The notes below the pieces were generated by a model. It saw only the letters and a program-made list of their open reading frames with translations, made no database searches and was not told the origin of the DNA. Position numbers and translations under genes: made by a program. Positions 2,066 to 64,000 of a stretch of 64,000 nucleotides of DNA are shown here, piece after piece; the stretch's first letter is position 1; each line of letters begins with the position of its first letter. The stretch is from Malacoraja senta (Eukaryota), in NCBI GenBank assembly GCA_038087875.1, contig CM075989.1, forward strand, positions 24,430,001-24,494,000. The letters run 5' to 3'.

Positions 2066-2740
2066 AAAAGTTAACTTGCGCTTCATTTGCACCTCCTCCA
2101 ACCTCATCTACTGTATCCGCTGATCCAGGTGTGGACTCCAATATATCGGCGAGACCAAGCACAGGCTCGGCGTTCGTTTGAACTCCTCCACTCAGTCCGC
2201 CTGAACCTACCTGATCTCCCGGTTGCTAAACACTTCAACTCCACTTCCCTTTCCCATACTGTCCTTTCTGTCCTGGGCCTCCTCCACTGTCAGAGTGAGG
2301 CCCAGCACAAATTGGAGGAACAGGTTCTCATATTTCACTTGGGCAGCTTACATCCCAGCGGTTTGAATATTGACCTCTAACTTCAAGTATCCCTTGCTTT
2401 CCCTCTTTCTCCATCTCACTCCCATCCTAGTTCTCCGACCAGTCTGACTGTCCTCTTGATTAAATTTTATCTTTGTATGCTTCGTTGTCACTATCCCCTC
2501 GCTAACAATGCTACATTCTACATTTTCTACATTCTCCTTGAACTTCGTCCCCTTTGATGTCCAGTTTTCACCCCTTACCCTTCCATATCTCCGTCTCCCT
2601 CTCCCCGACTCTCAGTCTGAGGAAGGGTCTTCAGAAACGTCACCCATTCCTTCTCCCCAGTGATGCTGCCTGTTCTGCTGAGTTACTCCAGCATTTAGTG
2701 TCTACCTTGTAAACCAGCATCCGCATTACCTTGCTACACA
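2066..2740 (+). mobile_element. Penelope-like element 3' part: degenerate GIY-YIG endonuclease plus terminal repeat
   Basis: One frame reads CTSSNLIYCIR*SRCGLQYIGETKHRLG (GIY-YIG motif with a stop), then LPVAKHFNS. It ends in the gtctga..agggtct..gaaacgtcacc / gatgctgcctg / gagttactccagc unit that is dispersed across the window. Confidence 0.85.
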
Positions 2741-3474
2741 TGTTTATAAGTACATTTGTTACTTTTTAAATCCATTTTAAAATGTTAATTATTTATATCC
2801 AGTTGAACAGTTTTTATAGGTCTCCGAACTACAGAGACAAGTAAACATTGTTCAAAGGCCACTGAATCAGAAACCAAACTGCTCGAGGGGTTATAATGTC
2901 ATTGTTTAGGTTTCCGTAATCACTTTCAAGGTTTCAAGGTCAGTTCATTGTCACATGTACCAATTAAGATACAGTGACATTTGAGTTACCATACAGCCAC
3001 ACTAAGTGAAAAGCAACAAGACACACAGCCACATAAAACATCCTTCACAGAGGATTCCACATTCCTCACCGTGATGGAAGGCAATAAAGTTCAATCTTCT
3101 TCCTCTTTATTCACTTAAACCGAGTTGTTCAAATGGTCCTGTTTTGGAAATGCATCCAGTGCCTTTTCTCTTGTCAATGGAGTAGGGATAATTTACTTTT
3201 ACTGTTTAGAATTACATGGACATTGTGACCTTAGTTTTGCCTCGGCATTTTTTTAAAAACTTTTGCAAGAGTATCTATTTTACTATTATTTTGACTGTGT
3301 TTCAAAAAGTATGTTGAGTTTTCATTTCTTTAATTGCCAAGATCCCTTGGTATAGTAAATCTTGTTAGACTTTATCTGTTGGGTGAAGAAAAGTTGCAGC
3401 TTGTTTGACGTGCAAGAAGGCTTTTTAAATTGAATGGTGTTGGACAAAGGAAAGGCAAATACAATGCATATTGT

Positions 3475-3748
3475 AGTTTAGTTTAGAGATACAGTGCAGA
3501 ATGAGGCCCTTCGGCCCACCACACTGACCAGCGATCCAGCACACTCTAGGGACAATTTACATTTATCCAAAACCAATTCACCTACAAACCTGTACGTCTT
3601 TGGAATGTGAGAGGAAACCGAAGATCTCGGAGAAAACCCACGCAGGTCACGGGAAGAACGTACAAACTCCGTACAGACAGCACGTGTAGTCAGGATCGAA
3701 CCCAGGTCTCTGGCGCTGTAAGGCAGCAACTCTACCACTACGCCACCA
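3475..3748 (-). mobile_element. V-SINE (HE1-like)
   Basis: tRNA-like head, central GGTTTCCTC..CA..CCAAA domain, (TAAAC)n tail. Confidence 0.85.
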
Positions 3749-4373
3749 TTTTAAATGTATATAGTGAGCCTAGAAACAATTGGACCATGTTAAATTCAAA
3801 ACATTGAATGGCATTTAGAAATGTAATCTTCGATGTATAATTTCATGGATGATTGTGGAGAATCAGCTGAAGATCCATCTGGATGTGCTCATGGTAAAGT
3901 GTTTGCATCTGGTGTGATTAGCTTTACAAATCAACTTTAGTCAATTATGTCAATTAACTGTATCATTCTCTTACATCAGTGTTTAGTGATGTATGGGTGC
4001 ATGCACATTACATTTTCAATAAAATCACTTTTCTAAAATTAAAAGCTTGCTTGCCGAGCAAAGTCCATGTTAATGGTCATTGTTTCATGAGGGAGGGGAT
4101 TGAATGAGATTATCTAGGGGGTGGGGGTTGCCGCCAATGAACCTAGCATCGTCACATTAGAATATCATCTGTCACCCCTCCTCTTGCTTATGGCTCTTGT
4201 TGTTAAGTACAAGAAGCTTATTACTTCAAAACCCATTGCAAATGTTTGAACACATATTTCAATCTGCGGTTCTGACCTATTGCTTTGTTTTATGTTGAAG
4301 TTGTGTGCTGCATGGGCCCCTAGTCTTGATCTTTTATGGCAAGTGGTATATCTAGATCGAACCACGATCCTTA

Positions 4374-60624: not shown

Positions 60625-61448
60625 CAAGTTCAAGTTCACATTTATTGCCACATACACCACTTAAGGTACAGTGGAATTTGACTTACCATGCAGCCATACA
60701 AACAAAAGAGCACAATACACAATAGAATACAACATGAACATCCACCACAGTGGAATCACCATTCTTCACTGTGGTGGAAGGCAATAACTTTGTCAGTCCT
60801 CCTCCTTTGTTCATCCGTGGTCGGGGACATGAACCTTCCGCAGTCGCAGCTACGGATGTCCCGATGTACAGGCTTTCTTGTCGGGATGCTTGAAACTCCG
60901 ACGTCGGGACGGACGGACACTCCGCGGCTTGGAGGTCCCGAATCGGCCGCTTCCTACCGGAGACCGGGGCTTCACGATGTTATAGGCCGCAGGCCGGCGG
61001 TCGGAGCTCTTCTCCAGCGACCCCCGGCAAGGGATCCCAGGCTCCGCGATGGAAAGTCCACACCGCGCCCGCAGCTAGAAGGTCCGCAGACCGCGGCTTC
61101 AGTATGTTATAGGCCGCAGGCCGGCGGTTGGAGCACTTCTTCTGGCGACCCCCGGCAAGGGATCGCCCGGCTCTGTGATGGAAAGTCTGCACTGCGCCCG
61201 CTGCTGAAGCTCTGGACCCGACTCTGGGAAAGGCCGCAACAATCCAAGCTGTTAGGCCGCGAGGGAGGGCGAAATGCAACTAGGAGAAAAGTCGCATTCC
61301 ACCGAGGTAAGTGACTAAAAAACAGTTTCCCCCAATTCCTGCCCCCACGCCCCCACACTAAAACACACTTTTAGACATACTAAAAACAAAAACAAAAAGT
61401 GGAAAGGATGAACAGCTGCTGGCGAGGCTGCCGGCTCGAGGCTGCCAC
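60625..61448 (-). mobile_element. GC-rich non-autonomous retroelement with an internal ~127-bp duplication and a LINE-like tail
   Basis: (TTGAAC)n tail at 60625-60640; 3' part homologous to 2926-3110 and 23153-23342; repeat units at about 60969-61095 and 61096-61211. Confidence 0.65.
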
Positions 61449-63574
61449 CTGATTCCATGGATAAATTAATTTAGAATTTTTCTCAGGAAAAGATGTGGAG
61501 TGTCTGTAAATGGACAATTCTTGAGGAGCTACTGCCAGCATTATATCACTGTATACTTTGGTCTATTGTCAATGAACATCGTTTTAGTAGTAGAATTTAC
61601 AGAAGGAAATTGCCAACAAGTTTACACTGTATTTCAAATCTTACAACATTTGGGGTTTTATTTCACCATTTCTTTAGAACACCAAAAACTAGCAATTCAG
61701 TCACGTAGTACTTTTTGTATAGGCGTTGCATGCTCAACTCTTACTTTTACACCGAGTAAATCGTGCCTAAGTGGGACAGGCCCATAATGCCCTTCGGTGT
61801 TTGCAATGCTGTCAAGCTGCCCTGGGTGCATTGGGCTGCTGTTGTGAACTGCACATGTCCTTTTTCAGTCTGTGTAAATTGGTAAGACAAATATCTCTTT
61901 AAGCTTCGACATGAATTTATAATTCCTCTGTTTGACACCAAAAACTCCAATTTAAGGTAAAGTAACCCAAAGACGTGATCATATCTGTCTTTGCTCTCTT
62001 AACGCAATGTTAGGGTGTGATGATATTGAGGTGAATGCTCTGTACCAAATTATCCATAATACAGTAGACAGGCTTTTTGAATCATTGAGTTTTTGCTCAA
62101 CAAAACTTTTTTTCAGAATGCAATCCATTAGTAAATCAAGGAATACCTGTATCTACTAGAGAAAGAAATGTGCCACCTCTGTCTCTTCTACCTATATTTG
62201 ACCACATGCCTACAACATTGTGGTTCACTCTTAATTGTCTTCTCAAATGGTGCAGCAAGCCATTGGGGATGGGTGGTATGACACTCATGAATCTGTGTTT
62301 AAACTATAAACTGTTTGCATAAAGACTTTATGTAAATAATATTTGATGGCCATAGAATCATAAAGTCACACAGTGTGGAAATAGGCCCTTCGGCCCAACT
62401 TGCCCGTGCAGATCGAGATGCCCCATCAACGCTAGTCCCACCTGCCTGCATTTGGCCCATATCCCTCTAAAGAAGGATCTCGACCCGAAACGTCACCCAT
62501 TTCTTTTCTCCAGCGATGCTGAGTTACTCCCGCTGAGTTACTCCAGCTTTTTGTGTCAATCTTCGGTTTAAACCAGCATCTGCAGTTTCTTCTTACATAT
62601 TCCCTCTAGACCTTTCCTGTCCATGTACCTGTCCAAATGTTTTTTTAAATATTGTATAGATGGGGTGGTGATGTTAACTAATGGTGATGAAAGCATTGAT
62701 TTAAATGTGCTGTTTTATATACAGTTGATTTTTTTATTCATAAAGTATATATTGAAATTAGTAAAGCACTGGGCGGTTCATAACGACTTGGCCATTATGC
62801 CTACATCTTGTGAACAAAGGCAAAAAGCTGTTTTAGTTTCAGGTTAGCATTCAAAACAGAATGCTCTGCAAAGAGCAGGTCAGGCAGCAGCATGTAGAGC
62901 AAAACAGACTTGATATTTAAGGTTAATGATCTATTGACGAGTCCAACCCTTTATCTGTCCACGAGTGCTGTCTAAGCTGCTGAATGTACCCAGCAATTTC
63001 TGTTTTCATGTCCATAGATTTCCAGAATTCGCATAATTTTCTTTATCTCTCCAAATTAGATTAACGTATTGTGTTAAGACTGTAAATTCAATGGTATAAA
63101 TTTAGATATTTGTTCCTTTTGAAACTTTTGATCATCCTGTTTTGGCTGTTGATTTACTTTCCATGTAAAGTTATTTGAGGTAACTTACTATTTAATGGAG
63201 ACTGCACATCGTTTTCCAACATAAAACAAATATTGTTTAACTGGCGCAGCTGAACTCTCTGGTGGCCCTGGACTTCCTATGTGTTGACCTAGCCTGTTGT
63301 CAAGCTTTTCTGCTTTGTTGAACTCCATGTTTGGCCTACTCCCAGTATTTGTTGTCTAGTATGTGCTAAAGTACCTTGTTGACATGAACATTACACATTT
63401 TCACCAAACATGTAAGCCGGTTTAGAAGGAATTAGTTTTCCTAATGAGTTGTGTTGTTTTAACAAACGCTGAATACAGATTTGACACAAGGAACTGCAGA
63501 TGCAGGTTTACAAAAGAAGACGCAAAATGCTGGAGTAGCTCAGCGGGTCAGCGGCATCTCTGGAGAACAGGGAT

Positions 63575-63608
63575 AGGTGACGTTTCAGGTCGGGACCCTT
63601 CTTCAGTC
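63575..63608 (-). ncRNA. Putative minimal hammerhead ribozyme motif in a palindromic Penelope-derived element (about 63483-63694)
   Basis: Minus strand reads CUGAAGA-AGGGUC-CC-GACCU-GAAAC-GUC-ACC; element flanked by an imperfect direct repeat CTGAATA(C/A)AGATTT. Confidence 0.6.
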
Positions 63609-64000
63609 TAAAGAAGAGTCCCGACTGGACAGATCACCTATCCCATGTTCTCTAGAGAGGCTGCCTGACCCGCTGAATTACTCCAGCACTTGACTGAATA
63701 AAGATTTTTTTTGTGAAATATAAATGCCTTATACTGTCATTTTAACATGTAGTGAAATATAATACAATCCTGATATTCCTATAAGAATAATAGTATTATG
63801 ATAAGAGGGGATTTCAACTCCCCTGTATTAATCAACATTGTTTTCGTGTGAAAGGCTTAATGGGAGAGAAAGGTTTTGTGTATCCAAAACAGTTTTTTCA
63901 AGTCCCAATAGAGTCAGGGTGGTACTGGACAATCCTAGTAGCTGGAGAAGCAGTGGGATAGCTTTGTAGAGATATTGACTACATTTCAAGGCAGTTATGA

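What the first reader, a model, noticed from the sequence alone, without database searches (positions are those of the whole stretch)
2616..63694. Dense family of short Penelope-derived elements carrying a minimal hammerhead ribozyme (retrozyme-like system)
Seen: about 20 copies of a 130-300 bp unit whose core is gt-CTGAAGA-aGGGTC-tc-GACCC-GAAAC-GTC-acc. Examples: 13193, 24344, 31460, 55988, 56027 and 59512 on +; about 10645, 15020, 28272, 55233 and 63575 on -. The same unit ends the GIY-YIG fragment at 2066-2740 and precedes the RT fragment at 56150. Established: CUGANGA and GAAA boxes plus an NUH site define hammerheads, and Penelope-like elements carry minimal hammerheads with a palindromic, loopless stem III thought to act as dimers. 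Inference: this is a very abundant non-autonomous, ribozyme-bearing family mobilised by a Penelope partner, and intact + strand copies (e.g. 13193-13225) would sit inside EFL1 pre-mRNA. The extra A after CUGAAGA is atypical, and many copies have core mutations.
Basis: partly seen in the sequence, partly recalled or inferred. Interest (0 to 1): 0.78.

Follow-up and report, generated by a model that had tools for sequence, protein, structure and literature searches.

The report
Hammerhead-headed Penelope end copies in skate
About 30 short, decaying copies of the hammerhead-bearing end of Penelope-like jumping genes lie in the introns of a skate gene, a known kind of repeat rather than a retrozyme, but most begin just before the ribozyme motif instead of at its predicted cut site, which likely marks the start of the RNA they were copied from.

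Summary
The repeat is real and denser than reported: 41 arms in about 30 insertions, 8.7% of the window, all in introns of a skate EFL1 gene. It is the end module (pLTR) of Penelope-like elements. It follows a GIY-YIG fragment, has two 3' ends about 35 nt apart, AT-rich target duplications, and head-to-head pairs with one 'tail' (9 of 10). It is not a retrozyme: there are no tandem arrays, and at most 1 of 36 5' ends lies at the GUC cut. The extra A is the known norm for Penelope hammerheads. 0 of 16 sense copies with a full core are intact (13193 included), the core decays at CpG like its flanks, and stem II shows no covariation. One feature is unexplained in the papers I read: 21 of 36 5' ends fall in 9 nt around TCAGT, just ahead of the core. 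Public runs show the same edge, often with an extra G. Best reading: reverse transcriptase starts internally and likely runs off a capped 5' end. The scan noted the same clustering in another shark-like genome.

The parts
145..330 (+). EFL1 exon (host gene, skate; start approximate); further exons near 13412-13534, 16149-16229, 20387-20520, 26247-26379 and 49064-49164, so every copy is intronic
   Evidence: 97% identity to Amblyraja radiata EFL1 over the first exon
2058..2377 (+). Broken 3' end of a Penelope-like ORF (GIY-YIG endonuclease; stops and a frameshift)
   Evidence: tblastn of RT+GIY-YIG proteins, E to 2e-14; three-frame translation
2378..2613 (+). Pyrimidine-rich 3' UTR / upstream part of the pLTR, ending in TCAG; also in the copy at 28304-28543 (-)
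2614..2742 (+). End module of the long copy: hammerhead motif (3-nt deletion in stem II), downstream body and tail
9168..9390 (.). Head-to-head pair, subfamily B; tail on the - arm only; target duplication of about 16 bp
9781..9992 (.). Head-to-head pair, subfamily C; tail on the + arm
10541..10682 (-). Solo tailed unit
13010..13322 (.). Pair, subfamily C; the + arm (13193) carries about 85 nt of UTR and a G10.1-to-A change
13917..14047 (+). Solo tailed unit, subfamily C
14821..15050 (.). Two solo untailed units facing tail to tail (14821-14912 +, 14954-15050 -)
19787..19977 (.). Head-to-head pair; tail on the + arm
20913..21108 (.). Head-to-head pair; tail on the + arm; 13-bp target duplication
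21398..21587 (+). Subfamily B unit with about 90 nt of UTR; target duplication
22770..22873 (-). Solo unit; a 13-bp target duplication fixes its 5' end at an extra G plus the A of TCAGT
24341..24477 (+). Solo tailed unit; 11-bp AT-rich target duplication directly before the 5' end
28222..28605 (.). Pair in which the - arm carries the whole 230-nt UTR; no tail on either arm
29296..29423 (-). Solo tailed unit
31443..31556 (+). Solo unit with about 17 nt of UTR; core intact, one stem II mismatch
37485..37694 (.). Pair; the - arm is the only arm that starts within 1 nt of the predicted cut site
41040..41248 (.). Head-to-head pair, subfamily B; tail on the + arm
55140..55392 (.). Head-to-head pair with about 27 nt of filler between the arms; tail on the - arm
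55987..56150 (+). 39-bp partial duplication of the hammerhead motif followed by a tailed unit (the only tandem case; both cores mutated in stem III)
56158..56538 (+). Penelope-like RT fragment, cut at both ends, fused directly behind the unit
   Evidence: 84% identity to an A. radiata protein, about 65% to full RT+GIY-YIG proteins
59509..59609 (+). Solo unit, subfamily B; 9-bp target duplication
62466..62600 (+). Solo tailed unit inserted into another repeat
63480..63691 (.). Symmetric head-to-head pair, subfamily C; the - arm is the only arm with core, stem II and stem III all intact (antisense to EFL1; stem I broken at the junction)

Best explanation
These are separate insertions of the hammerhead-bearing end module (pLTR) of Penelope-like retrotransposons, likely made when the element's reverse transcriptase starts inside an uncleaved RNA and runs off its likely capped 5' end just ahead of the hammerhead, and they are now decaying with no sign of selection. 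Steps. (1) Shown: the unit is the 3' end of an RT/GIY-YIG element, lies between AT-rich target duplications, and has two 3' ends about 65 and 100 nt past the GUC. (2) Taken from the Anolis element (PMC11167929): those two ends are the two internal reverse-transcription start sites, and uncleaved RNA is the template. (3) Inferred: both cut DNA strands can prime, one at each start site, which gives head-to-head pairs with a single tail. (4) Shown: 5' ends pile up at or just after the A of TCAGT, not at the cut site. (5) Inferred: that A is the transcription start. The start sites lie in the pLTR at both ends of the element's RNA, so starting in the 5' pLTR gives a 100-140 nt run-off cDNA (like a strong-stop product) that is integrated on its own, while starting in the 3' pLTR gives the rarer long copies. 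(6) Predicted: in naked RNA the core is held in a competing fold, so cleavage would need the element's protein, as in Anolis. Odds: about 0.9 for steps 1-4, about 0.5 for step 5.
For: Link to the ORF: (five arms extend into UTR or ORF, in all three subfamilies). Target duplications: 9 of 26 tested intervals at p<=0.012 and 13 of 26 at p<=0.04 against 644 mismatched flank pairs. One tail in 9 of 10 pairs, p=0.011, the pattern described for PLE insertions. 5' ends: 21 of 36 young arms in columns 7-15, 11 of them at the A or G of TCAGT; the largest cluster in 20,000 simulations was 13 and 17 under two nulls (starts read by hand). In four public runs the loose-end majority upstream of stem II follows the element only to about (C/G)AGTCTG and then turns AT-rich, unlike the pyrimidine-rich UTR; the plurality letter before the A is G in run X1 (426 contigs). 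An extra G stands in 5 of 7 arms that keep the A but not the preceding C (p=0.018); an extra G marks capped full-length L1 insertions (PMC11702581 passage). TCAGTCT fits the initiator consensus YYANWYY (recalled). At 55987-56538 a unit with this 5' end lies upstream of RT sequence with no UTR before it. Neutral decay: non-CpG core 12 of 273 mutated versus 142 of 1928 downstream (p=0.08), G12 at a CpG 11 of 31. The hammerhead-like fold is 2.6-7.7 kcal/mol worse than the best fold in 9 of 9 subfamily folds.
Against: No transcription start was measured. The poly(A) run X22 showed no place where many molecules begin or end (a weak test, since most reads come from passive copies). The extra-G count is post hoc and small: one case overlaps the target duplication and one needs a 2-nt deletion. 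In X22, X16 and one X2 row the plurality letter is C, and in another X2 row A. The same TCAG follows a polypyrimidine tract and fits a 3' splice site; in D. virilis the intron ends at this position and the start lies about 120 nt upstream. No full-length element was available to show where its 5' end is. 13 of 26 intervals gave no target duplication above chance.
Confidence: 0.55

Rival explanations
1. Ordinary 5'-truncated copies from the 3' pLTR, with a preferred stop: the RT stalls or the cDNA is joined at this spot because of RNA structure, a bound protein, the 3' splice site or the start of the pyrimidine tract.
For: 5' truncation is the rule for PLEs. The edge coincides with the 5' end of a predicted hairpin that pairs the core with downstream pyrimidines, with the near-palindrome TCAG-T-CTGA used at the symmetric junction at 63606, and with a splice-acceptor-like AG after 73-88% pyrimidines.
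Against: 11 of 21 clustered arms keep the A or G of that AG, which a splice-defined end would lose. No spliced exon-1 junction dominates in the window (one possible case, 10682) or in the joints shown (15 of 296 rows displayed). It does not explain an extra G. Junctions of the pairs keep both complementary segments, so simple cDNA snap-back does not fit.
Confidence: 0.27
2. A self-propagating, non-autonomous SINE-like family: short copies are themselves transcribed from an internal promoter and re-copied by Penelope proteins in trans.
For: Very high density. Unit depth is about ten times ORF depth in X22 (biased by divergence). The unit holds both RT start sites. pLTR sequence alone sufficed for mobilisation in trans in Adineta. 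Both arms of a pair share private variants (37485-37694).
Against: Every subfamily has a UTR- or ORF-linked long copy; no short-only lineage is visible among 36 arms. Short copies have lost the bases upstream of the A, and tailless copies lack one start site. Shared variants could come from gene conversion.
Confidence: 0.13
3. A true non-LTR retrozyme: tandem units are cut by dimeric hammerheads, circularised and reverse-transcribed; sense copies could also cut EFL1 pre-mRNA.
For: The hammerhead consensus is complete at subfamily level, and the five subfamily differences inside the motif all spare the 11 core positions (0 of 11 versus 16 of 64 downstream, p=0.11). Retrozymes derive from pLTRs.
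Against: No tandem arrays, only one 39-bp partial duplication. At most 1 of 36 5' ends is at the cut. 0 of 16 full-core sense copies are intact and solo copies lean sense, 16 to 4. Poly(A) reads over the unit are strand-symmetric, 3924 versus 4283. No covariation. The modelled dimer scores -6 to -7 kcal/mol against -20 to -24 for two freely folded monomers.
Confidence: 0.05

Closest known systems
Minimal hammerheads in pLTRs of metazoan Penelope-like elements (Cervera and De la Pena 2014, PMC4209133)
   Same: CUGANGA plus one extra base, G10.1-C11.1, GAAA, palindromic C-G at 15.2/16.2, UH; dispersed single motifs and opposite-strand pairs attributed to truncated PLEs. Fugu, cichlid and Xenopus rows of their alignment have the same CUGAAGAA and CGUC.
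   Different: Helix I here is 2 bp (4-5 bp is usual; 2 bp in D. virilis) and helix II 4 bp. No shark or skate term occurs in the supplement file searched. The parts I read do not discuss where solo copies begin.
Poseidon of Anolis carolinensis, PAc (Frangieh et al. 2024, PMC11167929)
   Same: Internal RT starts downstream of the hammerhead, a tail between two start sites, AT-rich targets, uncleaved template, no RNA ends at the cut site.
   Different: Different lineage (the relatives of this RT carry a cysteine-rich RT-EN linker, Neptune-like). No open frame was seen starting in the unit. A 5' run-off product is not described in the parts I read.
Complex insertions of EN+ PLEs: inverted 5'-truncated copy plus 30-40 bp tail on one end (Craig et al. 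2021; Arkhipova et al. 2013, PMC3846280)
   Same: Inverted pairs, one-sided tail, 8-10 bp target duplications, solo pLTRs.
   Different: Here the whole insertion is usually the 100-140 nt end module alone, with a fixed rather than variable 5' end.
Metazoan non-LTR retrozymes (PMC7229834; bioRxiv 10.64898/2026.07.22.740005)
   Same: Non-coding, type I hammerhead, related to pLTRs; solo 'monomers' are known.
   Different: Retrozymes are tandem 150-450 bp repeats with canonical hammerheads, expressed as circles and excluded from introns in Xenopus. These are dispersed, intronic, minimal and bounded by RT start sites.

Membership tests
EN+ Penelope-like elements | RT plus C-terminal GIY-YIG ORF | tested here: met
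   Both domains are present as separate broken fragments that match the same full-length RT+GIY-YIG proteins; no intact ORF in the window
EN+ Penelope-like elements | pLTR with hammerhead directly after the endonuclease ORF | tested here: met
   2058-2742; UTR also at 28304-28543
EN+ Penelope-like elements | Adjacent inverted 5'-truncated copy and a 30-40 bp tail on one end only | tested here: met
   10 pairs, 9 with exactly one tail
EN+ Penelope-like elements | AT-rich target with target-site duplication | tested here: met
   9 of 26 intervals at p<=0.012, 13 of 26 at p<=0.04
EN+ Penelope-like elements | Spliceosomal intron in the pLTR (some families) | tested here: inconclusive
   Donor-like GT at the ORF end and acceptor-like AG before the core; no such joint among 15 of 296 joints shown
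Neptune clade | Zn-finger-like linker between RT and EN | tested here: inconclusive
   The linker is missing from the window; it is visible in relatives of about 60-65% identity, P0025, P0036 and P0106; no tree was built
PLE minimal hammerhead | CUGANGA, extra base between 9 and 10.1, G10.1-C11.1, GAAA, palindromic 15.2-16.2, UH | tested here: met
   Met by the majority of all three subfamilies; core intact in 6 of 25 full-core arms, core plus stems II and III in 1 of 25
PLE minimal hammerhead | Compensatory variation in helices I and II | tested here: not met
   1 two-sided change in 138 cells, at shuffle level; only wobble changes between subfamilies
PLE minimal hammerhead | Self-cleavage at GUC (dimer or protein-assisted) | not testable with these tools
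   No assay; the folding model disfavours the active fold; no RNA end pile-up in one poly(A) run (weak)
Non-LTR retrozymes | Tandem 150-450 bp units, each with a hammerhead | tested here: not met
   Only a 39-bp x1.9 duplication
Non-LTR retrozymes | Canonical type I hammerhead with 6-bp helix I and loop 1-loop 2 contact | tested here: not met
   Helix I is 2 bp, predicted pairing probability below 0.01
Non-LTR retrozymes | Expression as unit-length linear and circular RNA | tested here: inconclusive
   One poly(A) run from a related organism; such a library would lose circles

The most novel reading that the evidence does not exclude
Skate Penelope-like elements are transcribed from an initiator immediately ahead of the hammerhead, and their internally starting reverse transcriptase integrates the 100-140 nt run-off cDNA of the RNA's own 5' end. 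The result is a SINE-like mass of capped, uncleaved hammerhead leaders (possibly hundreds of thousands per genome if this density held) made without any non-autonomous master element. That would explain the long-noted excess of solo minimal hammerheads in animal genomes and would map the PLE transcription start and both RT start sites from genomic DNA alone.
Probability: 0.45. Interest if true: 0.58.

Novelty: new member of a known kind. Interest (0 to 1): 0.33.

Why it matters
The class, the ribozyme variant and the insertion shapes are known, so the headline claim is ordinary. The useful part is mechanistic. How PLE RNAs begin, and what their hammerhead does, is open. A fixed 5' end upstream of the core shows that the inserted template was uncleaved, supports the Anolis in vitro result with genomic data from another lineage, and gives a sharp, cheap test: CAGE or RACE, and an untemplated-G count in any skate assembly. 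It also warns that hammerhead counts in such genomes are mostly dead pLTR leaders, not retrozymes.

Tried and rejected
Rfam at E<=5 returned no hammerhead family, only hairpin look-alikes on the inverted pairs. No whole genome is held. Motif scans gave 0 hits in viral contigs, 0 in prokaryote genomes and 1 in metagenomes, L001, a chance match in GC-rich DNA without the rest of the unit. Pfam found nothing on the window's GIY-YIG or PLE RT fragments; tblastn was needed. No RNA holder was listed by the run search; the small-share rows I did not lay are not used. Single copies do not fold better than shuffles (6 tested, z from -1.8 to +1.5). Depletion of intact sense copies: 0 of 16 versus 1 of 9, p=0.36; core-only 4 of 16 versus 2 of 9; no signal. 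Rejected: cut-site-defined 5' ends (1 of 36); spliced-exon junction as the main form; cDNA snap-back as the source of pairs; the tail-to-tail neighbours 14821/15050 as one event (no shared duplication); unit plus RT fragment as one event bounded by a duplication (p=0.12, unresolved). Literature searches for a skate or shark description, non-autonomous Penelope or solo pLTR and strong-stop or run-off found no description of this family or of the 5' clustering. The library lacks Repbase, Dfam and Lunse et al. 2017, and figures and bioRxiv supplements could not be seen, so it may be described there.

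
Full report
Observation. A profile built from eight window copies finds 41 arms, and a longer profile again 41. By hand I group them into 30 insertion events covering 5,550 bp, 8.7% of the window. Five arms are older, more divergent relatives and were left out of the mutation and breakpoint counts. 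The other 36 fall into three subfamilies of 23, 7 and 6 arms. Rfam has no matching hammerhead model at E<=5.

Host. The first ORF is an EFL1 exon, 97% identical to Amblyraja radiata and 94% to Rhinoraja longicauda, so the organism is a skate; the species was not determined. Six EFL1 exons lie on the + strand between about 145 and 49164 and the protein continues beyond the window, so all copies are intronic.

What the unit is. It follows a broken GIY-YIG ORF end (2058-2377) and a 236-nt pyrimidine-rich UTR. The same UTR precedes the copy at 28303, and subfamilies B and C each have a copy with about 90 nt of their own pyrimidine-rich UTR. The RT fragment at 56158-56538 is 84% identical to an A. 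radiata protein and about 65% to full-length RT plus GIY-YIG proteins. Those relatives have a cysteine-rich linker before the endonuclease, which suggests the Neptune clade; no tree was built. The unit has two 3' ends, about 65 and 100 nt past the GUC. Ten events are head-to-head pairs and nine of them have the extra 35-nt tail on exactly one arm (p=0.011). Target duplications of about 9-16 bp, mostly AT-rich, reach p<=0.012 in 9 of 26 intervals tested and p<=0.04 in 13; the other 13 show none above chance. An adjacent inverted truncated copy and a 30-40 bp tail on one end are the described PLE insertion pattern (Craig et al. preprint 10.1101/2021.04.23.441226, passages; PMC3846280, part 2 of 5). 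In the Anolis element the tail is the stretch between two internal RT start sites, targets are AT-rich, uncleaved RNA is the template, and the hammerhead cleaves only with protein (PMC11167929, parts 1-2 of 4; its Fig. S2 was a picture and could not be read).

The hammerhead. The subfamily majorities have the full minimal layout. The extra base after A9 is listed as a conserved trait of PLE hammerheads, and single dispersed motifs and opposite-strand pairs are already attributed to truncated PLEs (PMC4209133, parts 1-2 of 4 and supplement file 2 part 2; supplement file 1 not searchable). The copies are decaying. Of 25 arms with a full core, 6 keep the catalytic residues and stem III, and 1 also keeps stem II; it is antisense. 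0 of 16 sense arms are fully intact, and 13193 has lost G10.1. Non-CpG core positions are mutated in 12 of 273 cells against 142 of 1928 downstream (p=0.08; p=0.18 against the conserved body), and G12, at a CpG, in 11 of 31. Stems I and II show one two-sided change in 138 cells, at shuffle level. In favour of selection on the source elements: the five subfamily differences inside the motif fall in the loop, at position 17 or make wobble pairs, and none hits the 11 core positions, but this is not significant against the whole downstream part (p=0.11; p=0.02 only against the most variable 16 columns). Folding the subfamily majorities, the hammerhead-like fold costs 2.6-7.7 kcal/mol, mostly because the core pairs with pyrimidines just downstream, and the modelled dimer is far less stable than two free monomers (nearest-neighbour energies ignore tertiary contacts and proteins).

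Not a retrozyme. Metazoan retrozymes are tandem 150-450 bp repeats with canonical hammerheads expressed as circles (PMC7229834, passages; bioRxiv 10.64898/2026.07.22.740005, parts 1 and 3 of 5 and passages). The window has one 39-bp partial duplication and no array. At most 1 of 36 arms starts at the cut site. Solo copies lean sense, 16 to 4 (p=0.012; 11 to 4 without old copies, p=0.12), the opposite of purging. In a poly(A) run from a related organism, 11,625 of 7,335,232 reads were laid, strand-symmetric over the unit, with no pile-up of ends.

The unexplained feature. 21 of 36 5' ends lie within nine columns around TCAGT, immediately before C3; seven are at the A, four at the G, with fewer downstream. 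Five arms run on into the UTR and ten start further inside (starts read by hand). Two null models gave largest clusters of 13 and 17 in 20,000 runs. Target duplications fix this end independently at 22873, 24341 and 59509, and more weakly at 14821 and 62466. The laid runs agree: because the reference copy has a deletion in stem II, upstream letters appear as loose ends, and their majority follows the element only to about the AG and then becomes AT-rich in all four runs (2474 reads in X22; 197, 426 and 780 contigs in X16, X1 and X2; agreement 0.53-0.66; 24 of 2,689 loose-end rows were shown). The letter before the A is G in 5 of 7 informative arms (p=0.018, post hoc, two cases ambiguous) and is the plurality in X1, but C in X22, X16 and X2 and A in a second X2 row. 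An extra G marks capped full-length L1 insertions (PMC11702581, passage). TCAGTCT fits the initiator consensus (recalled, no call).

Mechanism. I therefore favour run-off. The RNA likely starts at the A of TCAGT; RT starting at either internal site in the 5' pLTR reaches the RNA end after about 100 or 140 nt; one primed strand gives a solo unit, two give a pair with one tail; starting in the 3' pLTR gives the long copies. The unit fused upstream of RT sequence at 55987-56538, with no UTR in front, has the order expected of a 5' end (one case, event boundaries unresolved). The main rival is a preferred stall at the same place. The AG follows a 73-88% pyrimidine tract, and in D. virilis the pLTR intron ends at helix I while transcription starts at 371, upstream of the 416-491 intron (PMC2377424, parts 2-3 of 4). 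Against a splice-defined end, 11 of the 21 clustered arms keep intron-side letters, and no splice joint appeared among the 15 of 296 joints shown. A self-propagating SINE-like lineage is not excluded, but no short-only subfamily is visible.

Novelty. The class and ribozyme variant are known; I found no description of the skate family or of the fixed 5' end in the searches. Lunse et al. 2017 on dimeric PLE hammerheads was not available and is known to me only through a review (PMC6765202, passages); PMC6155905 was seen as passages. Repbase and Dfam could not be checked. Two earlier notes of this scan on other shark-like genomes report the same 5' clustering and the one-tail fold-back pattern; I read them after recording my own reading and do not count them as evidence. 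Verdict: new member of a known kind, with one testable mechanistic lead; interest 0.33.

Noticed in passing
window 32154-32867 (+) and 51517-52545 (-): Two closely similar, largely open non-LTR RT fragments (Pfam RVT_1 on the second); L2-like by recall, possibly a young family.
   Followed up: no
window 47258-48020 and 44562-44871: A 385-bp tandem duplication of a LINE-like 3' end with inverted relatives 2.4-3.3 kb upstream.
   Followed up: no
window 38740-40100 and 41320-43090: Two long G/A-rich low-complexity tracts on either side of the subfamily B pair at 41040-41248.
   Followed up: no
window, solo copies: Solo insertions lean towards the EFL1 sense strand, 16 to 4 (p=0.012; 11 to 4 for young copies).
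   Followed up: partly
window 2065-2440 in run X22: Poly(A) reads over the ORF end are strand-biased about 1.3-2.4 to 1, while reads over the short unit are 1 to 1.
   Followed up: no
window 1726, 23587, 38359, 52610, 62954: Five older, 64-76% identical relatives; those at 23587 and 52610 also begin just before their CUGA box, and 52610 is preceded by GAGT.
   Followed up: partly
unit columns 12-22 and 44-60 (e.g. window 24345-24393): The catalytic CUGAAGAA box is complementary to the pyrimidine run after the cut site in all three subfamilies, a possible off-switch fold.
   Followed up: partly
window 55268-55293: About 27 nt of filler between the two arms of a pair; origin not traced.
   Followed up: no
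protein P0003: An A. radiata protein named 'nicotinamide riboside kinase 1 isoform X1' is mostly Penelope RT sequence (84% identity to the window fragment), probably a gene-model artefact.
   Followed up: no
PMC4209133 supplement alignment: A TCAG/TTAG-like motif just upstream of helix I recurs in several other animals' PLE hammerheads (fugu, Xenopus, pit viper, Nasonia, Ixodes, D. virilis).
   Followed up: no
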